A stretch of 64,000 bases of DNA from a virus. The position numbers and the translations under genes are program-made. The stretch covers positions 1-64,000 of the IMG/VR virus record IMGVR_UViG_3300037200_000158; one strand, 5' to 3'. The notes below the pieces were generated by a model that had not been told where the DNA came from, made no database searches, and saw only the letters and a program-made list of their open reading frames with translations. Below are positions 3,453 through 62,852 of the stretch, in pieces (position 1 is the stretch's first letter; every line of letters starts with the position of its first letter).

Positions 3453-3719
3453 TTACTTCTTCGGATCGTAGTGTTTCGCGAGATCATCGCCAGATAGCAC
3501 GAAGATATCGGTTTTCCAGTTGCCGGTCCAGGCGAGTAACAGAAGATCGTCCAGTTCGGCCCTCTTCACGATTGCATCCTTGCCTGTTCGGTCGTGCGCG
3601 TATTCCGCGTCACCGTTGACCGTGACGAGGATTAGTGTCATTTTGGCGTTGTTGCGGATGCCAGAAGGCGGTACGGAGTCGCCACCCAACACCCTGAAGT
3701 TCTTCGGATTGAAGATCAT
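3453..3719 (-). CDS. hypothetical protein
   Basis: Track ORF 3453..3725 trimmed to ATG 3719, which forms an ATGA overlap with the recombinase stop. Confidence 0.6.
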   Translation of the reverse strand: MIFNPKNFRVLGGDSVPPSGIRNNAKMTLILVTVNGDAEYAHDRTGKDAIVKRAELDDLLLLAWTGNWKTDIFVLSGDDLAKHYDPKK

Positions 3720-30107: not shown

Positions 30108-30180
30108 TTCGGTGTGGCGCAGCGGTCAGCGCGTCGGCCTCATAAGCCGAAGGTCGTGGGTTCGAGTCCCTCCACCGTTA
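30108..30180 (+). tRNA. tRNA-Met-like (CAU anticodon), imperfect stems
   Basis: Hand fold: D arm GCGC-AGCGGTCA-GCGC, anticodon arm TCGGC-CTCATAA-GCCGA, variable loop AGGTC, T arm GTGGG-TTCGAGT-CCCTC (one U.U mismatch). The acceptor pairs only 5 of 7 positions. No encoded CCA. Confidence 0.55.
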
Positions 30181-51070: not shown

Positions 51071-54000
51071 ATGCCCGACACTGATATTTGGGATATAGCG
51101 GCAGCCGCGAAGAGCGCGCCGCCCCCCTCCGCTGACATCTGGGATATTGCCGCGTCTACGCCAGGGTACCGCTCGCCCTACAGTCGTGAGGCGATGGAGG
51201 CTAACGCGCCCGGCGTGCCGAAAGCACCGTTGCCATATGAACTGCAGAAGCCGGATGAGCAGGCGGAAACAAATCGCGCCGGCGGGTCCACGTTCCAAAA
51301 TCCACGAACTGGGAGAATCTATCCGCGCCAGCAGCCCGGCAGTGAGAGTGGCCCATTGTCGGCGTTGGATCTCCCGATTCAGGCACCGGGCCACGCAGCG
51401 GAAGCTGTCGAGGCACTGGCGACACCAGCCGAAGACGCCGCGATGCAGATTGCTGCCGGTGTTCCACCTGCGCAGGTCGCCCTAAGTCCCGAATCTCTCA
51501 AGGCCGGAGCTCGCGGTGTCGCAAAGGGCATTCAGGCGGGATTAGAGGCCGCAACGCCATTACTCGCTGGTGGAGCTGCAGCCGCGCCGCTCGAAACAGC
51601 CGCCACGCTCGCGTCCGCCGCATTTGCCCAAGCGAAGACCGAAGATCTCCTGAAGCAGGTCGGGGTAGCGCCGGAGTACTCGGAACTCGCCGGAAGTGTC
51701 GCCGGGCTGCTCGCTGGTTACGCCGCCGGGAAGATTCGGCTGAGCCCCGAACAGGCATCGCTGATCGAGACTCTGCAAGGCAAGGATGCGCAGACACCGG
51801 AAGGGCAAGCCGCGCGAGTCCATAAACTTCAGGCTATGGCCAGCGACCCCGGAGCATCGCAGGGAGAGCGCGATGTAGCGTCGGCACTCCTGAAGCGAAA
51901 CCACGGCATCGAGTTCGAGCCGTTTCGGCCTGCGGAAGCGCCCGCTGCGCCCGAGAGCGCCGCTAGTACCCCAGCGACCGCTGAAACGCCACAGGCCGCG
52001 CCTGAGACGCCAGCGGCCCAACCTGAAGCGAACGCCGCTCCGGCTGAGACGAACGTTCCCGGTTTCGAGACGCGCGAGATCCTTCCCGAAGACGTGAAGC
52101 CCGGCGCAATCCTTCGGGACGCCAACGGACGAACAGGCGTTGTCACCGAACTTCGGCAGGGGAAGAATGTCAAATGGACGGACGATACCGGCGCCGAACG
52201 CACGACTACGCTGCCGAAGTTTCTCCAGCGGATGACAGCGATCGCGCAGACTCCCGCAGCGTCGGCACAGCCAGAAGCGCCCGTTAGCCCGCCGGTCGGC
52301 ACCGCCCCTCCGACTGAGCAGAATCAGCAACCCGCAGCGCCGCAGGTACAGGAAACGCCCACTTTAGGCGCCAACCTCCCGCCGGAGCAAATGCCCGGCC
52401 CGGCAGTCACGCAGGCTGGCGCGGAGAATACGGAGCACGTCGAGAAAGAGGTTCAGGCTGCGGAAGCGGTCGCGCCGCCTGCAACGGCGGTTGAAGCGCC
52501 AGCAACTCCGGTTGTAGCCGCACCGCCGCCCGAGCTCCCGCACACGGTCGAAGCACTCCCTCCCAACGAGGAACCGAAGGAAGCCGAAGCGCCCTACAAG
52601 TTCTCGTCCGCGCAAGTCAATCTGCCGACAGCCTATCACCGCGCGTTCACGGATGCGGTTGCCGGGATTCCAGACTCCGAACTCGCCGAGGACGGACGTG
52701 AAGACGATCCCCACATTACCGCTCTCTACGGGATTCATTCCACGTCAGCCGAACCCGTCAAGAAGCTCCTGAAGGATCAGGGGCCTATCACGGCGACCAT
52801 TGGCCCGATCTCGATCTTCAAAGGCGAAGACGGAAAGCCGGATGTCGTCAAACTCGATATCGACTCGCCCGCACTCCACGATCTGAATGGAAAACTCCGC
52901 ACGTTGGAGCACACGAATAACGTCCCGGACTACACGCCACATCTGACCTTGGCCTATTTGAAGCCGGGCGAAGGCGCAAAGTACGTCGGGAAGGTCGTGC
53001 CGGGGCTTACCGGGCAGCAGGTTACGTTCAACCGTCTGATGTTCAGCGGCAAGGACCAGGCACGCACGGATATCCCGCTCGCAGGCCAAACGAAGCCGGA
53101 GCGTCCGCGCGCCATCGAAGAGTCCGCGCCCGAAGCGCCCTCCGGTGAATTCGGCAAGTCCTCCCTTTCCCGCCTGAGCGACAAGGAAATCCGCGCAGCC
53201 GCAGCGAAAGACGGTATCGACCCGGAACCATACCTCGCGGAGCGCGCCGGCCCCGGCGGCAACCGCACCGGGCGGAACAAGTTAGAGCACGCGATTTTTG
53301 AAGCGGGAGAAGCCCGCAAGGCGAAGGGGGTGATCCAGCCGAACGCAGAAGCGCCGGCAGCCGCGCCAGTGGAGGCGGCTCCGGGGAAGACGAAGGCAGA
53401 GCAGATTGCGGCGAATGAGGCGCGCATCCGCGAACTGGAGTCGAAACTCGGCGCATCCGGCACCGTTCCGGCCACGAAGCCAAATCCGACGACAACGAAG
53501 ACGGTCCAGCAGTTGCGCGGCATCGCCGACACGCTCGACAAGCAAATCGAGGCGAAGCGGAATCCCGCGATAGCGCAGCAGAACCCGACGAGGCGACGCG
53601 CAGACATCGCCGCCGGTATGGCGAAAGAGGCCGACGCGATGGAGTTGGTCCAGTCCACGCTCCGCAATCTCGCCGACGCCCACGAGAACGGCTCTATTCC
53701 ATCGGTTCTGACGAACGTAAAGACGCGACCGCTTCTCGAGGACCTTCTCAGCCGCGACAAATTCCCGCAGGCGTGGCTGCACAGCGCGACCGTTACTCAC
53801 ATCACCACCGCGCTGAAGGGCAAGCCGAACACCAAGGAAGCAGTTGATCTCTTGACGCGCCGAAATGGTGGCGATGGCGTGCGCCTGACGGGCATGAAAG
53901 AGATAACGCTCGTCAGAGACCTGCTGGATAAGGCTGACGCCGCCGGGATCGGCCCAGCGAAGTACGCGAAGGAGGAACTCGCTCGGGCGACACGCGCATA

Positions 54001-57000
54001 CGGCGCAGGGTTGACGCCAGAGAATTGGCTCCAGGCTCATCAGGCGCTGAAGCCGTACGCAACCACAAAATCCGTTATACCTCCGAAAGAGCGCCAGATC
54101 GCAGAACTTGAACGTGGTCTGATCGGACGCAAGATCGAAGGTTTCTTCCCGACACCGAAAGCGCTCGCCGACAGAATGGTCGAGGAAGCGGACATCAAGC
54201 CCGGTATGCGAGTACTCGAACCGAGCGCCGGAAATGGAAGGCTTGCCGACGCTATCGCGAAAAAGACGGATGAACTCACCGCCATAGAGCCGGTGTCCGA
54301 CCTGCGCGCCATCCTCGACCTGAAGGGACACGCAGTTTCTGAGGACCGCGACTTTCTTGCGCACCGCGGCGAATACGACCGTGTCGTGATGAACCCGCCG
54401 TTCGAGAACGGGCAGGATATGGACCACGTCCGCCACGCTTTCGACCTCCTGAAGCCGGGCGGGAAGTTGGTCGCCATCATGGGCGAAGGTGGTTTCTTTC
54501 GCGGCGACAAGAAGGCGACGGCGTTCCGTGAATGGCTCCAGGCTCACGGGGGCACGAGTGAAAAACTGCCAGAAGGCACGTTCAAAGAGAGCGGCACTGG
54601 CGTAGCCACGCGTCTGGTAACGGTCACGAAAGCGGCCGCCACGAAGGAAGCGCCCGCAATAGCCCGAGCGCCGGCCGAAACGCCGAAGCCGAAAACCGCG
54701 CCGCTTCCCGAGGCGGACTACGCCGAAGTTGAGACCAAACTGGCGAATTCCGAAGCGGACCTCCGGGCCGCACGCCAGAACTACGAACGCCTGGACGATC
54801 TCTTCCGCGTCGTCAAAGATGCCACGGAGCGCGAACTCTCCGGCATCGACCTTCAGGAGTTCTCACGCGTTAAAAACTTAGACGAGGTAGAGGAAGATGT
54901 CCGCAAGCAACTGATTCTCGCGGGCCGCAAGTACGAGGCGGCAATGACGGCGCACGACCAAGCCCTTAATGCGGCCGCTGCGGTAAATCCGCTCCTGACG
55001 CCGCAGGCAAAGCCGATAGGTCCCGGCGTGCCGGTGCCCGAGGCTAAGGAAGCGAATAGCTCGCTTGGCGGAACAATCGACGAGGTGTCCGACCAGATCA
55101 AACTCATGGCGCGGCGTGGCGCTGATGATGCCGAGTATGACCCGCGCGACGATGTCCCTGATCTGAAAAGCAGCCTGAAGTTCCTCGATGAAGATATCCG
55201 CGATCTGGAGCACGCCGATCCTGCCTTGATGGCAACTGCGAAAGAGACTGCCGCGACCGCACGCAAGGTCATCGAGAGCGCGGAATCGTATACCGTTCCG
55301 CCGCCGAAGCCGGAACCGTCAGCCGACAGATACCGCGAACTCGACGCGCAGGTTAAGGCGATGCACAAGAACCCGGCGTATGCCGAGGACACGCCCGAAG
55401 GGCGACGGTTGCGCAATCAGGCGCTGGAGCTCAGCGACGAAAAGGAAATCCACCGTCCGGCATTCGTTGAAGAAGTGAATGCGGAGAGTATTGCCAAAGC
55501 CAAAGCGGAGCCGAAGGGACTTCCCGCGCCAGCACAGCGCGCCGTTGACGAGTTGAAGGACCTGGAGGCGGACGCACAGAAACTTCGCTCCACTGACTTC
55601 TCAAAGATTGACGCCAAAGACCCGGTAGCGAAAGAGGTTTCTGAAGACGCGCTGAAGACTGCCAAGCTCAAGGTCGATATGCGGAAGTTGCCCGGCTCCG
55701 CGCCGAATGCGCCGGAGCGAGTGGGCGAGTTCGATGCCTATCCGAAAACTGGGACCGTCACGATTCCCGCTGCGACCGCGAAGCAGATTGTCCCGCCTCT
55801 AAAGAAGGTAATCGAGGCCAAATCGACCATCCCGATCCTGAAGAACGTCTCCGTCATCAGCCAGAAAGGCAAGACGAAGATCACGGCGACCGATCTGGAG
55901 CAGGCAGTCACGTTCACGATCCCGACGAAGGCCCCGAACAGCGCAGTCACCATCCCGGTATCGGCTCTCGACCAGGCGATGAAGGCGAAGAACAAGGGCG
56001 ACCTGAAGATTGACTTCCAGCCCGGTACGGTCCCATCGCAAAACGGAAAGGCATCACTATCGGTCGGCCCGGCAGAGTCCAGCGCGGCTACGCTCGACAT
56101 CTCGAATTACCCCGAGATCCCCACGGCCACTGAGAAGGTGGGTAAGATTCCGGCGGAGAAGCTGCTGGACGCCATCAAAAAGACGTTCTACGCAATCTCC
56201 GCAGAAGAATCACGGTTCACCCTCAACGGCGCATTGTTAGAGGTTAAGGGCGGCAAAGCGAACATGGTGGCAACTGACGGCCATCGGCTCTCGGCTCAAT
56301 CGTTCGACGTTCCTGGTATTGAAGGTGACCATCGCTTCCTACTGCCGCGCCGGACACTCGACACGATGACAAAGTTGTACGCGAAGCATGCGGGAGACCT
56401 GACGGTTAACGCTGGCACTGGCGCAAGTAAGAAGTTCCTGACATTCGACACGCCCGACGGCACAACCTCGCTCTACACGATGCAGTTGGATGGGAACTTC
56501 CCCGACTACCAGCGCGTACTGCCGAACCCGCGCAACTACACGCATACGGCCACGGTGGACCGCGAAGAACTGCTCGACCTCATGAAGCGTATTATCGCCA
56601 TGAAGGAGCGCAGCAACAACGTTCTCCTGTCGTTCCGCCCCGATCAGGTGATTGGGTTCAAGTCGGCAGACGGCGCGGAAGTCAGGGGATCGGCACCGGC
56701 CACGCTGAAGACGCTTCCTGTGCCTAAACCTGAAAAGGACGAGGTTCAGCAAAATACCGAGCGCCGCCCGAACCCGCGCGAGAACTTCAACGCAAAGTAC
56801 ATCGCTGACGCCATTGCGCCGCTCGAAGGCAAGAACGTCGAGATCAACCTTCAGGATTCCAGCACCGCGCGCAATATGGGCGCGATGACCATCAGAGATC
56901 CACAAGACCCGAACCACACGGCAATCATTATGCCGATGCGGGACGACGTGGGGAACTGGGACGACGGGCTACCGCCGGTGAATCCGGTAAAAGAAGAGGG

Positions 57001-59509
57001 TAAGAAACTCGGCCCCGAAGCCGGAACCGCGCCTGCCCTCAGCGACGTAATCGCGCACGCCGCAACCCGTATCGACCAGGTCCGCGACTTCTTCGACGAC
57101 AAAGGAGCATCTGCCGACAGGCTCACGCGCAACCTGAACTTCGTCAGCCGCATTTCGCCGGAACTCGACACCGCCGCGCTCAAGGCCTCCGGCTGGAAGG
57201 GACTCGCGGCGGCCATCATGTACACAACGACGCCCGCTATGGACAAGGCGCTCGAAGGTTCGATGTCGCATGCCACGGTCGAGGAAGTCTTCAAGATCTT
57301 ACAGGAAGGACGCCTGCGCGGCATCCGTACCGGACTCTGGCTGCGCAACGCGGCGGAAGTGGCCGACGCTACCGACGAGGAGATCGTTAACGCTTTCCCC
57401 GGTTACAGCCGACTGCTCGACGCGGTTCAGGGGCGTCAGGGTCTACCGGGTGATCTGTCGCAGGCGGCTGCCGCGCGCCTCGAACGCAACGAGATCGACG
57501 AACTGCGGGACTTCCTGATTGACACCTTCGACACGACCGCCGATCTGGTAGCCCATGTCATGCTGCCGGGGCGATTCAACGAGATGCTTTCGGATCCATC
57601 AGTCCGCCGCGCAATCGACATCTACAAGCAGAATGCCGAACCGGCCATGCGCGACCTGCACGAAGAGCACGAAGGCATCCTGTCCCAGCATCTCGGGCCG
57701 GTTATGGGCGGAACTTACTTTCCGCTGATTCCGCTGGCCGATGAAGAGCAACACCCGGGCGGACCCGGGATCAAGACCCCGTACATCAAGCCGCGCAACG
57801 CGAATAAGCTCGCGACCGGCCTGTCGAGTGACTACGATCCGACGCTGAAGACATTCCGGTCTACGTTGGAACGCCGCGTCCATGCCAGCGTTAAGTTCGA
57901 TCTGCTGCGCGCTGCCGAAGCAACCGGCTGGCTCACGCCCGTTGGCGCCGATGACGATCCGCGTGTGTTTGTGGACCCGAATGGCAACGAATGGCCCGCA
58001 GCCGTTCGCGAGATGGCACCCGGCAAGACGCTGATTCGTCCCGGCCAGAAGCCGATTCCTGTCGGCAAACGCTTCGGTGTGATGCCCAAGGTACTCGCGA
58101 ACGAACTCGATATCATCCTCGAGGGCCCGAACTACGACGAAGCGCCGAACGCCCTGAACGGAATTCTGCACTTGCTGAATCGCTCCGCGCTGGCCGGCGC
58201 GGCCGTTATGGAATCCGTCTTCCACGGCAAGAACCTCGCGGGCGGCATCGTCCAGAACATGCCGGCGGTTCTGGCCACGCTCGGAAAGGGAGGGTATGCG
58301 GGCTTCCTGAAGGACTCAAACGGCATTGCGGCCGTCCTGAATGCCGCGCCATCGCCTACTGAGTTCGCCGCCGACCTTATCAAAATGGGACGGCTGGGAA
58401 TCCTTGGAGATCGCTTTGGGCAGTCGAGCTACAGCAAGAGAATGTCCGAACTGCTCGGAGAAGACGGCTCGCTCGCGCACCGGATCTCGCTCGCACCGCT
58501 TCTGTTCGGGCCGCAAGGTCTCGACGTATTGGCGCGCTGGATGCTTTTCAAAGCGAAAGAGACGCTCGATCCCGGCTATACGCCGCGCGAGATGGTGGAT
58601 TTCGTCAACCAACTGGGCATCTACGTCAACGGCCAGCAGAGCCGGATGGTGCGGTTTCTCCGCGCGCAGGGCCTAAATCCGTTCGCAGTTGCCGGAGTCG
58701 CCGGACTGGGGCGCGGCTTACGCTCGCTGACGGGAGGCGTTTCGCCGGTCGCCGGGTCTCTCGGTTGGAAGCTCGCGAACTGGCTGACCATCGGTATCGG
58801 TGGCTCGCTGCTCATGTGGTACCTGACCCACAAGGCCGTTACCGGCAAATCCCCGCTGGGGGACCCGACCGCGAAGCCGGGCAAAATTCCCCTCCCGTCG
58901 AAGTTCCGGCGGTCTACGTTCGCGCAAGCCCTTGCGCCGGGCGGGGGAACGCTCTATCTCGACATGCAGTACGGAAATCCCGATGTGGCCCGCGGGCTAC
59001 GCGCCACCGGCCTCGATGCTGCCTTCAGGACCGCCAACGCAGGCGGGAGCACCCAGCAGACGGCTGAAGCGGCACTGGCGCAGATGCTCGATTCCTGGAG
59101 CACCCCTCTCACCGGTCCAGCCACGCGGGCTATGATCGCCGGCCTCGGCGGGGTAGAGCCGCATGTGAACAGTCTGATCGACTCGCATGGAAAGAACGCC
59201 GTTAGCCTGCTCGGCTCGTTACCCGAGAAGCAAACGCCATTCACCACGTTCGGCCAGAAGTTGACCGGCCTGCCAGCGAACGCCGGATGGCGAACCCGCG
59301 CCGCTGTGATGGAGTTGAATCAGATGTTCGGGATAGGCCTTGAGGACATCGGCGTTATGCCGAAGCTGCCGCAAGCCACCGGACAGCAGCCGGAGACGCT
59401 GCCGCGCGGCGCTGTCGATATCCTGCTGCCGAGCCTGGTCTCGGGACCGTCCAATCCATACGGAGCCGCTGCGCACGTCCGCCAGCAGCGCGCCGCTATG
59501 GGTCAGTAA
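51071..59509 (+). CDS. 2,812-aa polyvalent (multi-domain) virion/ejection protein
   Basis: A single uninterrupted track ORF at the end of the ejection-gene block. Domains are listed as separate features. N-terminal DIWDIAA repeat, long Pro/Ala/Glu linkers, and a C-terminal TM-like segment WKLANWLTIGIGGSLLMWYL. Confidence 0.9.
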   Translation: MPDTDIWDIAAAAKSAPPPSADIWDIAASTPGYRSPYSREAMEANAPGVPKAPLPYELQKPDEQAETNRAGGSTFQNPRTGRIYPRQQPGSESGPLSALDLPIQAPGHAAEAVEALATPAEDAAMQIAAGVPPAQVALSPESLKAGARGVAKGIQAGLEAATPLLAGGAAAAPLETAATLASAAFAQAKTEDLLKQVGVAPEYSELAGSVAGLLAGYAAGKIRLSPEQASLIETLQGKDAQTPEGQAARVHKLQAMASDPGASQGERDVASALLKRNHGIEFEPFRPAEAPAAPESAASTPATAETPQAAPETPAAQPEANAAPAETNVPGFETREILPEDVKPGAILRDANGRTGVVTELRQGKNVKWTDDTGAERTTTLPKFLQRMTAIAQTPAASAQPEAPVSPPVGTAPPTEQNQQPAAPQVQETPTLGANLPPEQMPGPAVTQAGAENTEHVEKEVQAAEAVAPPATAVEAPATPVVAAPPPELPHTVEALPPNEEPKEAEAPYKFSSAQVNLPTAYHRAFTDAVAGIPDSELAEDGREDDPHITALYGIHSTSAEPVKKLLKDQGPITATIGPISIFKGEDGKPDVVKLDIDSPALHDLNGKLRTLEHTNNVPDYTPHLTLAYLKPGEGAKYVGKVVPGLTGQQVTFNRLMFSGKDQARTDIPLAGQTKPERPRAIEESAPEAPSGEFGKSSLSRLSDKEIRAAAAKDGIDPEPYLAERAGPGGNRTGRNKLEHAIFEAGEARKAKGVIQPNAEAPAAAPVEAAPGKTKAEQIAANEARIRELESKLGASGTVPATKPNPTTTKTVQQLRGIADTLDKQIEAKRNPAIAQQNPTRRRADIAAGMAKEADAMELVQSTLRNLADAHENGSIPSVLTNVKTRPLLEDLLSRDKFPQAWLHSATVTHITTALKGKPNTKEAVDLLTRRNGGDGVRLTGMKEITLVRDLLDKADAAGIGPAKYAKEELARATRAYGAGLTPENWLQAHQALKPYATTKSVIPPKERQIAELERGLIGRKIEGFFPTPKALADRMVEEADIKPGMRVLEPSAGNGRLADAIAKKTDELTAIEPVSDLRAILDLKGHAVSEDRDFLAHRGEYDRVVMNPPFENGQDMDHVRHAFDLLKPGGKLVAIMGEGGFFRGDKKATAFREWLQAHGGTSEKLPEGTFKESGTGVATRLVTVTKAAATKEAPAIARAPAETPKPKTAPLPEADYAEVETKLANSEADLRAARQNYERLDDLFRVVKDATERELSGIDLQEFSRVKNLDEVEEDVRKQLILAGRKYEAAMTAHDQALNAAAAVNPLLTPQAKPIGPGVPVPEAKEANSSLGGTIDEVSDQIKLMARRGADDAEYDPRDDVPDLKSSLKFLDEDIRDLEHADPALMATAKETAATARKVIESAESYTVPPPKPEPSADRYRELDAQVKAMHKNPAYAEDTPEGRRLRNQALELSDEKEIHRPAFVEEVNAESIAKAKAEPKGLPAPAQRAVDELKDLEADAQKLRSTDFSKIDAKDPVAKEVSEDALKTAKLKVDMRKLPGSAPNAPERVGEFDAYPKTGTVTIPAATAKQIVPPLKKVIEAKSTIPILKNVSVISQKGKTKITATDLEQAVTFTIPTKAPNSAVTIPVSALDQAMKAKNKGDLKIDFQPGTVPSQNGKASLSVGPAESSAATLDISNYPEIPTATEKVGKIPAEKLLDAIKKTFYAISAEESRFTLNGALLEVKGGKANMVATDGHRLSAQSFDVPGIEGDHRFLLPRRTLDTMTKLYAKHAGDLTVNAGTGASKKFLTFDTPDGTTSLYTMQLDGNFPDYQRVLPNPRNYTHTATVDREELLDLMKRIIAMKERSNNVLLSFRPDQVIGFKSADGAEVRGSAPATLKTLPVPKPEKDEVQQNTERRPNPRENFNAKYIADAIAPLEGKNVEINLQDSSTARNMGAMTIRDPQDPNHTAIIMPMRDDVGNWDDGLPPVNPVKEEGKKLGPEAGTAPALSDVIAHAATRIDQVRDFFDDKGASADRLTRNLNFVSRISPELDTAALKASGWKGLAAAIMYTTTPAMDKALEGSMSHATVEEVFKILQEGRLRGIRTGLWLRNAAEVADATDEEIVNAFPGYSRLLDAVQGRQGLPGDLSQAAAARLERNEIDELRDFLIDTFDTTADLVAHVMLPGRFNEMLSDPSVRRAIDIYKQNAEPAMRDLHEEHEGILSQHLGPVMGGTYFPLIPLADEEQHPGGPGIKTPYIKPRNANKLATGLSSDYDPTLKTFRSTLERRVHASVKFDLLRAAEATGWLTPVGADDDPRVFVDPNGNEWPAAVREMAPGKTLIRPGQKPIPVGKRFGVMPKVLANELDIILEGPNYDEAPNALNGILHLLNRSALAGAAVMESVFHGKNLAGGIVQNMPAVLATLGKGGYAGFLKDSNGIAAVLNAAPSPTEFAADLIKMGRLGILGDRFGQSSYSKRMSELLGEDGSLAHRISLAPLLFGPQGLDVLARWMLFKAKETLDPGYTPREMVDFVNQLGIYVNGQQSRMVRFLRAQGLNPFAVAGVAGLGRGLRSLTGGVSPVAGSLGWKLANWLTIGIGGSLLMWYLTHKAVTGKSPLGDPTAKPGKIPLPSKFRRSTFAQALAPGGGTLYLDMQYGNPDVARGLRATGLDAAFRTANAGGSTQQTAEAALAQMLDSWSTPLTGPATRAMIAGLGGVEPHVNSLIDSHGKNAVSLLGSLPEKQTPFTTFGQKLTGLPANAGWRTRAAVMELNQMFGIGLEDIGVMPKLPQATGQQPETLPRGAVDILLPSLVSGPSNPYGAAAHVRQQRAAMGQ
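52583..53080 (+). other. 2H phosphoesterase (LigT-like) domain of giant protein (aa ~505-670)
   Basis: Two H-x-T/S motifs with the usual spacing: DPHITALYG and TPHLTLAYL. Confidence 0.65.
54098..54640 (+). other. SAM-dependent N6-adenine methyltransferase domain (aa ~1010-1190)
   Basis: FFPTPKALADRM, VLEPSAGNGRL (motif I), VVMNPPF (motif IV). Confidence 0.8.
55754..56944 (+). other. DNA polymerase III beta sliding clamp (DnaN)-like module (aa ~1562-1958)
   Basis: Collinear with full-length DnaN: STIPILKNVSV..KITATDLE; VTIPVSAL; EESRFTLNGALLEVKGG.ANMVATDGHRLS; FLLPRRTL; LDGNFPDYQRVLP; NFNAKYIADAI; AIIMPMRD. Confidence 0.75.
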
Positions 59510-60493: not shown

Positions 60494-60544
60494 GCGCCCT
60501 GCGGATGAGGCTTCTGCCTTGTCTTCAGGGCGCTTTTTTATTTT
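60494..60544 (+). terminator. intrinsic terminator ending the late/ejection operon
   Basis: GCGCCCUG...CAGGGCGC stem with an inner AGGC-UUCU-GCCU, followed by UUUUUUAUUUU. Confidence 0.8.
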
Positions 60545-60559
60545 GTGTGTAAATATGCA

Positions 60560-60587
60560 TTGACAGCAATGTGCCGCATCGGATAAT
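60560..60587 (+). promoter_or_regulatory. sigma70-type promoter
   Basis: TTGACA (60560-65), a 16-nt spacer, then GATAAT (60582-87). AT-rich upstream region. Confidence 0.65.
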
Positions 60588-60659: not shown

Positions 60660-61424
60660 ATGCCCAAGTTACACAAGTTACACGAATTGCTTGCCGTCGA
60701 TGGGAATCTCAAAGCCCAGGCCGACAAGACGCGAACCGAACTCATGGGAACGTTCGAGAAGAAGACGCACCTATTCTCGGAAAAGACCGTTTCCTACAAA
60801 CCCTACGAAGAGAACTCACAAACAACCGTTGAGAGCCAGCTCGACATCCAGACCACAGTTCCGAAGGAACTGAAATGGCTGTCGGAATTCATCGTCAAGT
60901 CGCTGGACGTGTCCTATCAGGTAGCCGAGGCGAATACAATCGCCCGTGCCGACGTGGTGCTGGAGAACGGAACCGTCCTGCTTTCCCAACTGCCTGCCAC
61001 GTCCCTGCTCGAACTCGAAAAGCGTGCCAAGGAGATGCACGACTTCGTGGCCTCCATCCCGACGCTGGACCCGGCGAAAGGCTTCCGGCTCGATCCCGAC
61101 AAAGGCAGCGACGGAATTTTCAAGGCGCGCGAAGACCGAAAGACGCGCACGAAGAAGATGAATAAGGTTCTGACTCTCGCGCCGCCGACCGACAAGCACC
61201 CGGCGCAAGTTCAGGTGGTTGTGGAAGACGTTCCAGTCGGCGACATTCTTACACTGGAATGGTCTGGACTCATCACTACGGCCGCCAAGGGAGACATGCT
61301 GTCCCGCGTTGAGGACTTCGCTCGTGCGGTTAAGAAGGCCCGCGCCAGGGCCAACGAAGCGGAGATCGCAAAGAACGACACCAGGATCGGAGCCGTAATC
61401 GTCGGCTACGTCTTCGGCCTGTAA
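60660..61424 (+). CDS. conserved hypothetical protein (first gene after sigma70-type promoter)
   Basis: 254-aa track ORF with AGGA upstream. MPKLHKLHELLAVDGNLKAQ...LPATSLLELEKR...IPTLDP...HPAQVQ. I recall similar uncharacterised phage/actinobacterial proteins but cannot name a family. Confidence 0.7.
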   Translation: MPKLHKLHELLAVDGNLKAQADKTRTELMGTFEKKTHLFSEKTVSYKPYEENSQTTVESQLDIQTTVPKELKWLSEFIVKSLDVSYQVAEANTIARADVVLENGTVLLSQLPATSLLELEKRAKEMHDFVASIPTLDPAKGFRLDPDKGSDGIFKAREDRKTRTKKMNKVLTLAPPTDKHPAQVQVVVEDVPVGDILTLEWSGLITTAAKGDMLSRVEDFARAVKKARARANEAEIAKNDTRIGAVIVGYVFGL

Positions 61425-61430
61425 CAAAAG

Positions 61431-61750
61431 TTCGGGTAGGCGGGAAACCGTCGATCCAGGCTCAAGGTCAGAATCAGGATCATTTAACAGATTCAGGTTT
61501 TAACCCGAAGGCTCACACTCAGAAAGGAAGATGCACAATGGACGCGACAAACAAACCGGGAACGCTGGTTCAAATCCAGCCGGGCTCTCCAATAAAACAT
61601 ACGAGCCCGTGGTCTAGCGGTAAGGCATCGGGATTAGGCTCAAGGTCGCGGGCGCGGAGTGCGGAAGGCTCACTGAGTACAGTCGCTGACTTCAAATCAG
61701 CACCAGACTGCTAATCTGGACGCCCCCGGCATAGGATACTTGCCGGGGGC
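61431..61750 (+). ncRNA. tandem tRNA-like units with circularly permuted acceptor/T-arm/D-arm module
   Basis: T arm GCTGG-TTCAAAT-CCAGC + CGGGCTC-T-CCA (61564-91), then after 11 nt GAGCCCG-TG-GTC-TAGCGGTAA-GGC (61603-26). Repeated blocks AGGCTCAAGGTC (61458-69, 61636-47) and GAAGGCTCAC (61507-16, 61664-73). No ORF. Confidence 0.45.
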
Positions 61751-61763
61751 ACTAAAAAACACA

Positions 61764-61916
61764 ATGGCTAAAAACCAGACACATTCCGACCTTCACCGAG
61801 CGACGATCAGGGTACCCCATTCGCTCTGGAAGCGCATCAAGCAAGCCGCGCTGAATGCAGACAAAACGATCCAGGAGTACGTGACTCTTGTGATGGACAA
61901 GGCGACGCCGAAATGA
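61764..61916 (+). CDS. ribbon-helix-helix protein (50 aa, below track cutoff)
   Basis: MAKNQTHSDLHRATIRVPHSLWKRIKQAALNADKTIQEYVTLVMDKATPK. ATGA overlap with the nuclease gene. Confidence 0.6.
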   Translation: MAKNQTHSDLHRATIRVPHSLWKRIKQAALNADKTIQEYVTLVMDKATPK

Positions 61917-62554
61917 GTCCCGATTTCAACGCCGAAACGCATACCTACGCCGAACCGGGAACCGGGCGGCGGATTGAGAGCGTCACGCAGGTTTTAGAGA
62001 GGGCCGGGATCTCTGATTGGTCCAATGTGCCGGACGAGGTCCTCTGGGAAGCGCAACAGCGCGGAACGATGGTGCATCGCGCGATCCACTTCGCAAACCA
62101 GCGCAATCTCGACCCCGAGAGTGTAGACGAACGCATTAGCGGCTACCTGGAGGCGTGGAAGGCCTTCGCTTCGGATCACCAATTGATCGTCCGGCGTAGC
62201 GAGATGCTCCTTTATAGGCGCATCACGATTACGGATCAGGAAGTCATTGTGCCGGCAGAGAGTGACCTTGAGATTGTCGGAACGGGCGACGCCGAAGGAA
62301 ATATTATCAGGCAGGGAGAAATCGTCCTCGACGTGAAGACTGGCGACCCTACTGACGCTTGGGCGCCGCAGTTGGCCGCATACGTGAGAGCACTCAGCCC
62401 GACCGCGCGGCACACGCACAAGCGCGTGAATGTGCAGTTGTCCAGAGATGGAAAATACCGCCTTTGGTGGTGGCCGATCAGAACCTTCGATGAGCACTGG
62501 GGCGTCTTCCGCAACGCTTTGATCGAAGGTAAGCGAAAGCAGGTAGCGGCGTGA
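61913..62554 (+). CDS. PD-(D/E)XK (RecB/Cas4-like) nuclease
   Basis: ETHTY...SVTQVL...RGTMVHRAI...GTGDAEG...IVLDVKTG...QLAAY follows the nuclease motif order. Confidence 0.75.
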   Translation: MSPDFNAETHTYAEPGTGRRIESVTQVLERAGISDWSNVPDEVLWEAQQRGTMVHRAIHFANQRNLDPESVDERISGYLEAWKAFASDHQLIVRRSEMLLYRRITITDQEVIVPAESDLEIVGTGDAEGNIIRQGEIVLDVKTGDPTDAWAPQLAAYVRALSPTARHTHKRVNVQLSRDGKYRLWWWPIRTFDEHWGVFRNALIEGKRKQVAA

Positions 62555-62772: not shown

Positions 62773-62852
62773 AGCGTTACTCGAAGAACAGATGGCGGTC
62801 GGGGCCGTGGTCGCGGTCGCGGTCGCGGTCGGGGTCGCGGTCGTGGTCTTAA
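62769..62852 (+). CDS. 27-aa Arg/Ser/Trp repeat peptide (tentative)
   Basis: ATGA overlap with the previous stop. MKRYSKNRWRSGPWSRSRSRSGSRSWS is encoded by the hexamer repeat. Confidence 0.35.
   Translation: MKRYSKNRWRSGPWSRSRSRSGSRSWS
62797..62848. repeat. GGTCGN hexanucleotide tandem repeat (about 8.7 copies)
   Basis: ggtcgg ggccgt ggtcgc ggtcgc ggtcgc ggtcgg ggtcgc ggtcgt ggtc. Confidence 0.9.

What the first reader, a model, noticed from the sequence alone, without database searches (positions are those of the whole stretch)
61431..61750. Tandem tRNA-like units in which the 3' half (T arm-acceptor-CCA) precedes its matching 5' half (acceptor-D arm): an apparently permuted RNA gene
Seen directly: 340 nt without any ORF longer than about 30 codons. 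GCTGG-TTCAAAT-CCAGC (61564-80) is a canonical T arm. It abuts CGGGCTC-T-CCA (61581-91), which reads as acceptor 3' strand, discriminator and CCA. Eleven nt later GAGCCCG (61603-09) is the perfect complement of that strand. It is followed by TG and a D arm GTC-TAGCGGTAA-GGC, which from memory resembles the bacterial tRNA-Gln type. Each half sits in one of two homologous tandem units. Each unit reads AGGCTCAAGGTC, a variable hairpin, GAAGGCTCAC, then a T-arm(-like) hairpin. The second T-arm-like hairpin is GCTGA-CTTCAAA-TCAGC at 61685-701. The outer halves look decayed. Unit 2 ends with an anticodon-arm-like hairpin CCAGA-CTGCTAA-TCTGG and a 9-bp GC hairpin. Established knowledge: this gene order is the hallmark of two-piece (permuted) tmRNA genes and of permuted tRNA genes, which are thought to arise by duplication followed by decay. 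Inference: this may be a phage-borne intermediate or a new tRNA-like RNA. A scar of tandem integrations into a tRNA gene is the alternative.
Basis: partly seen in the sequence, partly recalled or inferred. Interest (0 to 1): 0.7.

Follow-up and report, generated by a model that had tools for sequence, protein, structure and literature searches.

The report
Permuted tRNA mimic in phage RNA
The gap after a phage gene of unknown function encodes a roughly 320-base folded RNA whose core is a tRNA look-alike with its two halves in swapped order; this RNA-plus-protein pair recurs in many phages and soil bacteria and appears not to have been described.

Summary
The core observation is real. At 61556-61631 (+) lie a canonical T arm and a 7-bp acceptor stem closed by a 15-nt loop that begins U-CCA. 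U8-G9 and a canonical D arm follow, and a 4-bp stem in the anticodon-stem position closes the module.

It is not an att scar, a tmRNA or a decaying tandem tRNA. It is the central domain of a ~320-nt structured RNA (61431-61750) that starts 7 nt after the stop codon of a DUF7873 gene.

The same gene-plus-RNA pair occurs widely:
- 131 of 145 related metagenomic, viral and actinobacterial loci have at least one such module.
- All five cultured phages examined have it: Gordonia GodonK, Klebsiella FBKp24, Ralstonia phiRSL1, Rhizobium RHph_TM30 and Vibrio K481. There the gene often sits inside tRNA arrays and the RNA is unannotated or mis-annotated.

Every helix of the module covaries.

The topology is that of the tRNA-like domain of bacterial Y RNAs (YrlA). 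Rfam's YrlA model scores related loci at only 26-38 bits against a threshold of 69. The window has no Ro60 gene and no Ro60-binding motif.

Most likely this is a new Y-RNA-like RNA that partners with DUF7873. It is probably cut by RNase P and trimmed to a CCA end. Its function is unknown.

The parts
60560..60587 (+). sigma-70-like promoter (TTGACA-16-GATAAT) upstream of the DUF7873 gene; probable start of the transcription unit that carries the RNA
   Evidence: a consensus match only; it is preceded by a terminator-like hairpin at 60515-60532
60660..61424 (+). DUF7873 gene (254 aa), the conserved protein partner or neighbour of the RNA
   Evidence: Pfam PF25283, E 1.8e-66. 1306 homologues. The AF2 model has pLDDT 89.9 and no significant fold match
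61431..61750 (+). whole structured noncoding RNA (~320 nt), starting 7 nt after the stop codon
   Evidence: alignment A1 of 14 relatives. Fold z-score -4.4. Covariation exceeds all 500 shuffles. ORFs are not conserved
61431..61437 (+). P1, 5' strand (UUCGGGU); pairs with 61503-61509
   Evidence: 87% of cells paired. Compensatory variants seen: UUGGGU/ACCCAA, UCGGGC/GCCCGA, UUCGGGAU/AUCCCGAA. An alternative pairing of GGGU with AUCC at 61454-57 is also possible
61439..61452 (+). P2 hairpin GGCGG-GAAA-CCGUC
   Evidence: all 5 pairs show changes on both sides
61458..61502 (+). purine-rich hexamer repeats (AGGCUC AAGGUC AGAAUC AGGAUC ... AGAUUC AGGUUU) enclosed by P1. In relatives a hairpin, or a further tRNA-like module, is inserted in the middle of this region
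   Evidence: The 6-nt phase is seen across relatives (AGACUC AGACUG AGACUG ... in L097)
61503..61509 (+). P1, 3' strand (ACCCGAA)
   Evidence: conserved word AUCACCCGAAGGCU in alignment A1
61509..61515 (+). AGGCUCA motif, copy 2 of 4 (the others are at 61458-64, 61636-42 and 61666-72)
   Evidence: 4 of the 11 occurrences in the 64-kb window fall within 215 nt here, all on the + strand
61517..61522 (+). P3, 5' strand (ACUCAG); pairs with 61673-61678
   Evidence: nested stem recovered in most of 17 relatives. Weak in the MAFFT alignment
61533..61536 (+). P4, 5' strand (GCAC); pairs with 61659-61662
61543..61548 (+). P5, 5' strand (CGCGAC); pairs with 61645-61650
   Evidence: Compensatory variants: CGCAAC/GUUGCG (L074), CGCGGAG/CUCUGCG (L001), CGACUGGC/GCCGGUCG (L094)
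61556..61559 (+). P6, 5' strand (CCGG): takes the place of the 3' strand of a tRNA anticodon stem and closes the tRNA-like module
   Evidence: 100% paired in 14 relatives, and all 4 pairs show compensatory changes
61560..61563 (+). variable-loop equivalent (GAAC); C61563 is the C48 partner of G15
   Evidence: read directly from the sequence
61564..61580 (+). T arm GCUGG-UUCAAAU-CCAGC
61581..61587 (+). acceptor stem, 3' strand (CGGGCUC)
   Evidence: 98% paired; all 7 pairs covary
61588..61602 (+). loop closing the acceptor stem: discriminator U61588, CCA 61589-91, then the A-rich AUAAAACAUAC. The predicted RNase P cut lies between 61602 and 61603
   Evidence: NCCA in 16 of 19 close-clade modules and U at position -1 in 14 of 19. 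Processing is inferred, not shown
61603..61609 (+). acceptor stem, 5' strand (GAGCCCG)
61610..61626 (+). U8-G9, then the D arm GUCU-AGCGGUA-AGGC
   Evidence: 96% paired. T at position 8 in 19 of 19 close-clade modules
61628..61631 (+). P6, 3' strand (UCGG)
61632..61644 (+). conserved internal-loop word GAUUAGGCUCAAG (contains AGGCUCA copy 3)
   Evidence: alignment A1: GGAUUAGRCU is nearly invariant
61645..61678 (+). 3' strands of P5 (61645-50), P4 (61659-62) and P3 (61673-78), with the internal loop GGAAGGCUCA between them
61685..61719 (+). 3' domain: hairpin 61685-701, A, then an anticodon-arm-like hairpin 61703-19 (loop CUGCUAA). Probably the remnant of a co-transcribed tRNA
   Evidence: At this position relatives carry a full tRNA: Thr-CGU in L079, Ser-UGA in L097, Thr-UGU in L144. 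29 of 99 viral or metagenomic loci do so
61722..61750 (+). 10-bp GC-rich terminal hairpin (no U tract in the window); the 3' end or terminator of the RNA
   Evidence: 73% paired, 7 of 10 pairs with changes on both sides. Some relatives have a U tract after it

Best explanation
Identity (the well-supported part). 61431-61750 (+) encodes a ~320-nt structured noncoding RNA. It is probably transcribed together with the upstream DUF7873 gene, as its 3' extension. Its central domain (61556-61631) is a circularly permuted tRNA mimic. In order it contains the variable loop, the T arm, a 7-bp acceptor stem closed by a loop, U8-G9 and the D arm. It is closed by a 4-bp stem in the anticodon-stem position and sits on top of a long irregular stem (P3-P5). 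A 5' domain carries hexamer repeats and AGGCUCA motifs. A 3' domain is a tRNA remnant. The gene-plus-RNA pair is a conserved two-part module in phages, often inside their tRNA arrays. It also occurs in actinobacterial chromosomes.

Mechanism (inferred, not shown). The RNA works like a bacterial Y RNA.
- The single-stranded AGRCUNA repeats and loops bind the co-encoded DUF7873 protein.
- The L-shaped tRNA mimic presents a tRNA elbow and acceptor end to the host's tRNA machinery.
- The module has the 12-bp acceptor/T stack and the NCCA of a good RNase P substrate. RNase P most likely cuts between 61602 and 61603.
- The upstream piece would then be trimmed to CCA at 61591. The result would be a two-piece RNA held together by about 27 bp (acceptor stem plus P3-P6), as reported for Mycobacterium smegmatis YrlA.
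For: Structure:
- RNAalifold and pair counts on 14 relatives give P6 100%, T arm 100%, acceptor stem 98% and D arm 96% of cells paired. 18 of the 20 pairs show compensatory changes. 0 of 500 shuffles reach the observed values.
- 111 modules show the same picture.
- P3-P5 emerge as a nested stem in most of 17 relatives folded independently, from unrelated sequences.

Linkage to DUF7873:
- 131 of 145 loci have at least one strict module within 700 nt downstream of a DUF7873 stop codon.
- That is 1.96 modules per kb, against 0.013 per kb elsewhere in the same loci.
- All 5 cultured phages examined have it.
- In Nonomuraea and Nocardia genomes the pair is flanked by housekeeping genes, so it behaves as a self-contained module.

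tRNA context:
- The gene lies inside tRNA arrays in GodonK, RHph_TM30 and K481.
- A real tRNA follows the RNA in 29 of 99 viral or metagenomic loci.

Y-RNA likeness:
- The order of elements is the same as in the YrlA crystal structure: anticodon-stem strand, T stem-loop, acceptor-like stem-loop, D stem-loop, anticodon-stem strand (bioRxiv 10.1101/312249).
- Rfam's YrlA model gives sub-threshold but non-random hits on relatives (26-38 bits, E 7e-5 to 0.12).
- My module model R1 hits Ro60-adjacent YrlA-like elements at 47-56 bits.
- Ro60 (TROVE) genes lie 1-6 kb from DUF7873 in L154, L079 and the Rhizobium phages.

Processing:
- NCCA follows the stem in 16 of 19 close-clade modules, where 1/64 is expected by chance. 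The acceptor stems are 7 bp by the search criterion. U is at position -1 in 14 of 19. The loops are A/U-rich and unstructured.
- M. smegmatis YrlA, which has a 7-bp stem, is cut by RNase P and receives CCA in vivo (PMC4201824).
Against: - There are no expression data for any member. The transcript ends, the RNase P cut and the CCA end are all inferred.
- No evidence shows that DUF7873 binds RNA. Its predicted fold has no significant match. The only hints are weak: Pur-alpha/Whirly-like at E about 0.2, and YicC_C at 19.8 bits against a cut-off of 27 in one homologue.
- The hexamer repeats could instead form an imperfect helix or act at the DNA level.
- In Actinobacteria, first modules often have 4-8-nt loops without CCA. 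Cleavage is therefore probably not universal in the family.
- The terminal hairpin in the window lacks a U tract.
- The T-arm and acceptor pairing was partly imposed by the search pattern. Only P6, the D arm and the diversity of pair types are independent evidence there.
Confidence: 0.6

Rival explanations
1. A true Ro60 Y RNA (a YrlA family member). Its Ro60 partner would be encoded elsewhere in the phage or by the host, and DUF7873 would be only a neighbour.
For: The module topology is the same. YrlA sub-threshold hits occur on relatives. R1 cross-detects Ro60-adjacent modules. TROVE genes lie near DUF7873 in L154, L079 and the Rhizobium phages.
Against: The window has no TROVE gene (tblastn). 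Rfam's YrlA model finds nothing on the window RNA at E up to 10. The GNCGAAN0-1G motif is absent: the nearest word is CCCGAAGG at 61504-11, and it is not conserved across the family. Most DUF7873 phages (Klebsiella, Gordonia GodonK-like, the 78-kb Vibrio phages) are not among the TROVE-encoding phages. The Rhizobium phage has separate module hits just upstream of its TROVE gene. The tight linkage is to DUF7873, not to Ro60.
Confidence: 0.1
2. A tRNA decoy. The tRNA mimic and the anticodon-arm remnant would soak up host tRNA-targeting defence nucleases or toxins, protecting the phage's and host's tRNA pool.
For: The element lies within phage tRNA arrays. Anticodon-loop-like hairpins with covarying stems and conserved CUUGANA loops occur in several relatives. 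Neighbours in L154 include Thg1, RF-1-like and TROVE genes, which are RNA-repair themed.
Against: The module itself has no anticodon loop. The identity of the 3' tRNA or anticodon varies widely. The pair also sits in actinobacterial chromosomes next to housekeeping genes. DUF7873 matches no PADLOC defence model. This reading does not explain the conserved protein partner or the hexamer domain.
Confidence: 0.12
3. A cis-acting processing and stability element. The tRNA-like module would be an RNase P entry site. It would separate the DUF7873 mRNA from the downstream tRNA and protect the mRNA's 3' end. There would be no trans-acting RNA function.
For: The RNA starts 2-7 nt after the stop codon. 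A tRNA often follows it. The module has features of an RNase P substrate.
Against: About 250 nt of additional conserved, covarying structure (P1-P5, the conserved loops, the hexamer array) is far more than a cleavage signal needs. Many first modules in Actinobacteria have 4-nt loops that are unlikely to be cut.
Confidence: 0.12
4. A two-piece (permuted) tmRNA-like RNA, charged and used on ribosomes.
For: The order is T arm, acceptor strand, CCA, A-rich intervening segment, acceptor strand. Weak local hits to the tmRNA_permuted and beta_tmRNA models cover exactly that segment.
Against: ARAGORN is negative. The tmRNA_permuted score is 10.3 bits against a threshold of 47. G3:U70 is absent in 19 of 19 close-clade modules, and the discriminator varies. 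A full D arm is present, which tmRNA lacks. No reading frame is conserved. GodonK already encodes a normal tmRNA.
Confidence: 0.03
5. An att scar, or decaying tandem tRNA genes; or a DNA-level element in which the hexamers act as iterons or operators.
For: Phage attP sites often contain the 3' end of a tRNA gene. The region has short direct repeats. An RHH-like gene lies downstream at 61764-61916.
Against: The acceptor strands are complementary to each other, with compensatory changes at every position across 111 modules. The architecture is kept across phyla. No integrase domain was found in the flanking ORFs. Junctions of real tandem tRNAs score only 15-36 bits with R1, against 50-74 for the modules. 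All repeats are on one strand, and their position is fixed relative to the RNA helices.
Confidence: 0.02

Closest known systems
YrlA (Y RNA-like A; Rfam RF02553), the tRNA-like domain of bacterial and phage Ro60-associated Y RNAs
   Same: The module is the same circularly permuted tRNA: anticodon-stem strand, variable loop, T stem-loop, acceptor-like stem-loop, UA/UG, D stem-loop, anticodon-stem strand. The nucleotides for tertiary contacts are conserved. The module sits on a long stem formed by the RNA's 5' and 3' parts. The RNA is paired with a co-encoded protein, and it occurs in phages. M. smegmatis YrlA has a 7-bp acceptor stem, is cut by RNase P and receives CCA (PMC4201824). The models cross-detect each other.
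   Different: No Ro60/TROVE gene in the window. No GNCGAAN0-1G Ro60-binding motif. Below the Rfam threshold: nothing on the window, 26-38 bits against 69 on relatives. About three times longer (about 320 versus about 110 nt). It has an extra hexamer-repeat domain, sometimes two modules, and a 3' tRNA or remnant. The neighbour is DUF7873. NCCA is encoded and conserved in the close clade, whereas most YrlA RNAs have short closed acceptor stems.
Two-piece (permuted) tmRNA genes of Alphaproteobacteria, Betaproteobacteria and cyanobacteria
   Same: The 3' acceptor strand with CCA precedes the 5' acceptor strand. An A/U-rich intervening segment is presumably excised. The two pieces are held together by base pairing.
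   Different: No G3:U70, no tag reading frame and no SmpB-type D-loop; a full D arm is present. Not detected by ARAGORN or at Rfam's thresholds.
Permuted tRNA genes (Cyanidioschyzon merolae type)
   Same: The 3' half lies upstream of the 5' half, and the acceptor strands are joined by a short linker.
   Different: Those genes encode a complete cloverleaf with an anticodon arm, matured through a circular intermediate in eukaryotes. Here there is no anticodon arm. The closing stem continues into a larger RNA.
tRNA-like processing modules such as mascRNA (MALAT1) or the tRNA-like structures of plant RNA viruses
   Same: tRNA mimicry that recruits RNase P or the CCA-adding enzyme.
   Different: Those have the normal 5'-to-3' tRNA order, lie at RNA 3' ends, and belong to eukaryotic or RNA-virus systems.

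Membership tests
YrlA / Ro60 Y RNA | tRNA-like module with the order T stem-loop, acceptor-like stem-loop, D stem-loop, closed by an anticodon-like stem | tested here: met
   compared with the description
YrlA / Ro60 Y RNA | score at or above the Rfam RF02553 gathering threshold (69 bits) | tested here: not met
   No hit on window 61300-61900 at E up to 10. Relatives score 26-38 bits
YrlA / Ro60 Y RNA | Ro60 (TROVE) gene within about 4 kb on the same strand (the criterion of Chen et al. 2014) | tested here: not met
   tblastn with a phage TROVE protein finds nothing in the 64-kb window. Pfam scans of the neighbouring ORFs are negative. It is met in only a few relatives: L154, L079 and the Rhizobium phages
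YrlA / Ro60 Y RNA | GNCGAAN0-1G motif near the 5' end (putative Ro60 contact) | tested here: not met
   The only CGAA in the RNA is in CCCGAAGG (61504-11). It has C, not G, at the first position. It lies on the 3' strand of P1 and varies in relatives
YrlA / Ro60 Y RNA | binding by Ro60 protein | not testable with these tools
   needs an immunoprecipitation or EMSA experiment
two-piece tmRNA | detection by ARAGORN or by Rfam tmRNA_permuted / beta_tmRNA at threshold | tested here: not met
   (10.3 bits against 47)
two-piece tmRNA | G3:U70 alanine identity pair in the acceptor stem | tested here: not met
   The window has G3-C70. The 19 close-clade modules have GC or CG at 3-70
two-piece tmRNA | conserved tag reading frame with a stop codon downstream of the 5' acceptor strand | tested here: not met
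   ORFs in the RNA differ in strand, position and length among 17 relatives
permuted tRNA gene | the two halves reconstitute a full cloverleaf including an anticodon arm | tested here: not met
   The 4-bp closing stem opens into conserved internal loops and P5-P3, not into an anticodon loop
phage attP / tRNA integration scar | a segment identical to a host tRNA 3' end, next to an integrase, with no selection on pairing | tested here: not met
   Compensatory changes occur at all 7 acceptor pairs. The flanking ORFs have no integrase domain. The host's tRNA set is unknown, so identity could not be tested
bacterial RNase P substrate (pre-tRNA-like) | 7-bp acceptor stem stacked on a 5-bp T stem, a T loop, and NCCA 3' of the stem | tested here: met
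   (sequence features only). Cleavage itself is not testable here
DUF7873-associated RNA (the family proposed here) | lies within 700 nt downstream of a DUF7873 gene on the same strand and contains at least one permuted tRNA-like module plus AGRCUNA hexamer repeats | tested here: met

The most novel reading that the evidence does not exclude
DUF7873 and this RNA form a previously unrecognised ribonucleoprotein class, in phage tRNA islands and in Actinobacteria. RNase P and 3' trimming turn its RNA into a two-piece molecule with a genuine free CCA acceptor end. That end is then used: it might be aminoacylated or otherwise handled by translation or tRNA-repair factors. This would make it a third kind of functional permuted tRNA-like RNA, besides two-piece tmRNA and Y RNA.
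Probability: 0.12. Interest if true: 0.9.

Novelty: new variant of a known kind. Interest (0 to 1): 0.72.

Why it matters
Bacterial Y RNAs are so far the only described cellular RNAs built around a circularly permuted tRNA, and what that module binds is still unknown. This finding shows the same module in a different, larger RNA tied to a different protein of unknown function.

- **Spread.** The protein has 1306 homologues and occurs in 75 cultured phages of Klebsiella, Vibrio, Ralstonia, Rhizobium, Gordonia and others. It also occurs in actinobacterial chromosomes.
- **Tractable systems.** These cultured phages offer a way to ask what permuted tRNA mimics are for. They also let one ask why phages place such a mimic in the middle of their tRNA arrays.
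- **Annotation.** It assigns a likely role to an orphan Pfam family. It also corrects annotations: the stretches are currently empty, carry spurious small ORFs, or are called an odd 'suppressor tRNA'.

Tried and rejected
- **ARAGORN and Rfam on the window**: nothing at the locus except weak local T-arm hits.
- **blastn of the locus against INPHARED phages**: no match; the relatives are too diverged at the DNA level.
- **Fold search of the DUF7873 model against PDB and BFVD**, and profile or sequence searches of PDB: no significant match. I do not rely on the weak Pur-alpha/Whirly-like hints or the sub-threshold YicC_C hint.
- **PHROGs, NCBIfam and PADLOC for DUF7873**: nothing.
- **JGI's name 'GatC' for some homologues**: treated as an unreliable automatic label.
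- **CsrA/RsmA sponge idea.** GGA motifs are present in the window, but the conserved word across the family is AGRCU, not GGA. Rejected.
- **Serine-specific anticodon idea** for the 3' hairpin (GCU, UGA and CGA in several relatives). Across all loci the tRNA at that position has many identities. Rejected.
- **Domain-swapped chain of tRNAs** (the D arm of module 1 pairing towards the T arm of module 2). The strand after each D arm pairs with the strand before its own T arm, for example CAGCG/CGCUG in module 2 of L020 and P6. Rejected.
- **Block A and block B of the hexamer region as a helix.** Single-sequence folds give two mutually exclusive solutions around P1. Left open.
- **Literature searches** for DUF7873, for phage tRNA mimics and for new Y-RNA work found no description of this RNA.
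Full report
**1. What is in the sequence**

- T arm GCTGG-TTCAAAT-CCAGC at 61564-80.
- CGGGCTC (61581-87), then T and CCA (61588-91).
- An 11-nt A-rich spacer.
- The perfect complement GAGCCCG (61603-09).
- TG, then a D arm. The D arm is a regular 4-bp stem, GTCT/AGGC, with loop AGCGGTA (61612-26).

The nucleotides that hold a tRNA in its L shape are all present: U8, A14, G15 with C48 (C61563), G18G19, A21, G53-C61 and T54-A58.

ARAGORN finds only a tRNA-Met at 30108. Rfam finds nothing at the locus at its gathering thresholds. At permissive E-values it reports only a T-arm fragment (tRNA model, 13.8 bits) and a local tmRNA_permuted match (10.3 bits against a threshold of 47).

A 58-codon ATG ORF spans 61538-61714, but it is not conserved in relatives. 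The 'second T arm' at 61685-701 is not a T arm in relatives.

**2. It is a conserved element tied to a protein gene**

The upstream gene (60660-61424) belongs to Pfam DUF7873 (E 1.8e-66). I fetched loci that encode relatives of this protein:
- IMG/VR: 19 loci.
- GTDB genomes: 52 loci, mostly Streptosporangiales, Nocardia and Propionibacteriaceae.
- Metagenomes: 80 loci.

A strict pattern was then applied to the 700 nt after the stop codon. It required a 5-bp T stem, a T loop of the form N-T-N-R-A-N-N, and an abutting 7-bp stem closed by a loop of 3-60 nt (the D arm that follows was inspected in the output but not required). It finds at least one module in 131 of the 145 loci that have enough downstream sequence.

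With a simple D-arm-like requirement added to the pattern, the density is 1.96 modules per kb there, against 0.013 per kb in the rest of the same loci on both strands. The pattern alone is not rare: it occurs about 0.5 times per shuffled window. The argument therefore rests on position, conservation and covariation, not on the single match.

**3. Structure**

Evidence from the 14 closest relatives (alignment A1):
- RNAalifold predicts the module.
- Counting pairs on a structure I specified gives 100% of cells paired for P6, the closing stem in the anticodon-stem position (61556-59 with 61628-31).
- The T arm is 100% paired, the acceptor stem 98% and the D arm 96%.
- 18 of these 20 pairs show compensatory changes. 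None of 500 shuffles, and no slid register, reaches the observed values.

Evidence from 111 modules across the whole family (A3):
- The T and acceptor stems show 4-6 pair types per position.
- Their pairing was imposed by the search pattern, so only the diversity of pair types counts as evidence there.
- P6 was not imposed. It is 62% paired in a fixed register, against 36-50% for slid controls.

Below the module, single-sequence folds were constrained only at P6. In most of the 17 relatives tested they give the same nested stem from unrelated sequences:
- P5: 61543-48 with 61645-50.
- P4: 61533-36 with 61659-62.
- P3: 61517-22 with 61673-78.

At the 5' end, UUCGGGU (61431-37) pairs with ACCCGAA (61503-09). 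Compensatory variants occur in relatives. This helix, P1, encloses a GNRA hairpin (P2, 61439-52) and an array of purine-rich hexamers in 6-nt phase. An alternative pairing of GGGU with AUCC after P2 cannot be excluded.

The word AGGCUCA occurs four times in 215 nt here, against 11 times in the whole 64-kb window.

The 3' domain (61685-719) is a hairpin followed by an anticodon-arm-like hairpin. Several relatives carry a complete tRNA at that position. A GC hairpin (61722-50) ends the element.

**4. Context**

The window is a tailed phage with a P22-type portal and coat, a terminase and a 2812-aa polyvalent protein.

DUF7873 homologues occur in 75 cultured phages. I examined five of them:
- In Gordonia phage GodonK, Rhizobium phage RHph_TM30 and Vibrio phage K481, the gene lies among tRNA genes; in the first two it sits in the middle of a long tRNA array.
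- In all five, including Klebsiella FBKp24 and Ralstonia phiRSL1, the 300-500-nt gap after the gene contains one or two permuted modules. In the proteobacterial phages most begin with ACCA or CCCA after the stem.
- These gaps are unannotated, carry a small antisense ORF, or carry a 'tRNA-Sup-TTA' call that overlaps a module in FBKp24.

In Nonomuraea and Nocardia chromosomes the pair is flanked by a sigma factor, an oxidoreductase and 2-oxoglutarate dehydrogenase. It is therefore a self-contained two-part module, not only phage cargo.

**5. Comparison with known systems**

The order anticodon-stem strand, T stem-loop, acceptor-like stem-loop, UA/UG, D stem-loop, anticodon-stem strand is exactly that of the tRNA-like domain of bacterial Y RNAs. 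[quoted passage not shown] The M. smegmatis YrlA, which has a 7-bp stem, is cut by RNase P and receives CCA in vivo (PMC4201824 and bioRxiv 10.1101/312249).

The models confirm the resemblance in both directions:
- Rfam's YrlA model gives sub-threshold hits on the DUF7873-linked RNAs of relatives (26-38 bits against a threshold of 69, E 7e-5 to 0.12). It gives none on the window.
- A covariance model of my 111 modules (R1) hits the window only at 61552-61636 (65.4 bits; next best 15.8). The window was one of the training sequences.
- R1 also hits elements next to Ro60 (TROVE) genes in L154, L079 and RHph_TM30 at 47-56 bits.
- Junctions of real tandem tRNAs score 15-36 bits with R1.

Ro60 genes lie 1-6 kb from DUF7873 in those few genomes. 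They are absent from the window and from most DUF7873 phages.

The defining YrlA features fail here. There is no linked Ro60, no GNCGAAN0-1G motif and no score at the family threshold. I therefore do not file the RNA as YrlA, although it most likely works like one.

It is also not a tmRNA. There is no G3:U70, no conserved reading frame, and a full D arm is present.

It is not a permuted tRNA gene, because it has no anticodon arm.

**6. Mechanism**

Shown:
- A conserved, covarying RNA fold with a tRNA-mimic core.
- Obligate linkage to DUF7873.
- Association with tRNA genes.
- Conservation of NCCA (16 of 19), U8 (19 of 19), G1-C72 (16 of 19), U at -1 (14 of 19) and A/U-rich loops in the window's clade.

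Inferred:
- The RNA is co-transcribed with DUF7873 from the promoter-like site at 60560.
- DUF7873 binds the single-stranded repeats.
- RNase P cuts 5' of G61603 and the upstream piece is trimmed to CCA61591. This would give a two-piece RNA held together by about 27 bp.
- The exposed tRNA elbow and acceptor end engage tRNA-binding factors.

The DUF7873 model is confident (pLDDT 89.9) but has no significant structural relative. The protein side of the mechanism is therefore open.

The rival readings are set out separately with their evidence: a genuine Ro60 Y RNA, a decoy for tRNA-targeting nucleases, a purely cis-acting processing signal, a tmRNA-like RNA, and an att scar or DNA element.

**7. 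Verdict**

The 'permuted' reading is right in topology but wrong in family. The element is a member of an apparently undescribed RNA family with a known type of tRNA-mimic core and a new protein partner. No paper in the searchable library mentions DUF7873 or such an RNA.

Noticed in passing
window 51071-59509 (+): A single 2812-aa ORF combines a 2H phosphoesterase / Acb1-like domain (about residues 545-640), a methyltransferase domain (about 1035-1137) and a complete DNA polymerase III beta-clamp (DnaN) module (about 1578-1957). It looks like a polyvalent phage protein.
   Followed up: partly
L154 10073-11431 and 11624-11733; L079 165-1496; L161 (Rhizobium phage RHph_TM30) 4896-5719 and 5807-7375: Ro60 (TROVE) genes with their own permuted tRNA-like elements (YrlA-like; R1 scores 32-56 bits) lie 1-6 kb from the DUF7873-RNA pair in a few phages. 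In L154 the neighbours also include Thg1-like, RF-1-like and SSB genes.
   Followed up: partly
L158 (Klebsiella phage vB_KpM_FBKp24) 3518-3597: The record's 'tRNA-OTHER / tRNA-Sup-TTA' overlaps the T arm and 3' acceptor strand of the second permuted module (module model hit at 3558-3657). It is probably a mis-call of the tRNA-like RNA rather than a suppressor tRNA.
   Followed up: partly
L156 (Gordonia phage GodonK) 3494-3622 (-); Gordonia phages Ziko, Fryberger, Ronaldo: A 129-nt CDS (gp151) is annotated antisense within the RNA region and is probably spurious. In the Ziko-type phages the DUF7873 match runs under two annotated CDSs.
   Followed up: no
window 62795-62848: Nine tandem copies of the hexamer GCGGTC (83% matches) lie downstream of the exonuclease-like gene. 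They read as (RP)n on the minus strand and (VA)n on the plus strand.
   Followed up: no
window 30108-30180 (+): The only canonical tRNA in the window is tRNA-Met(CAU) at 59.9 bits. The first two acceptor pairs are flagged as non-standard in the Rfam alignment.
   Followed up: no
window 61764-61916 and 61913-62554 (+): Directly downstream of the RNA lie a 50-aa ORF and a 213-aa exonuclease-like gene. The 50-aa ORF looks like a ribbon-helix-helix protein (by eye; no Pfam hit) and has no obvious Shine-Dalgarno sequence. The exonuclease-like gene matches phrog_298 (E 9e-11) and overlaps the small ORF's stop codon.
   Followed up: partly
L092 3545-3615; L158; several metagenomic loci: The tRNA that follows the RNA in some relatives has an unusual anticodon loop or a stop-codon-reading anticodon: a CUA-type loop in L092, and ARAGORN 'tRNA-???' calls elsewhere. 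Phage suppressor-like tRNAs may be co-transcribed with this RNA.
   Followed up: no
module D arms across loci: The D arms of the modules resemble different tRNA classes in different lineages. They are Leu/Tyr-like (GCGGAAUUGGUAGACGC) in the Klebsiella and Ralstonia phages, Gln/Glu-like in the window, and Ala/Thr-like (GCUCAGCGGUAGAGC) elsewhere. This suggests repeated exchange with neighbouring tRNA genes.
   Followed up: no
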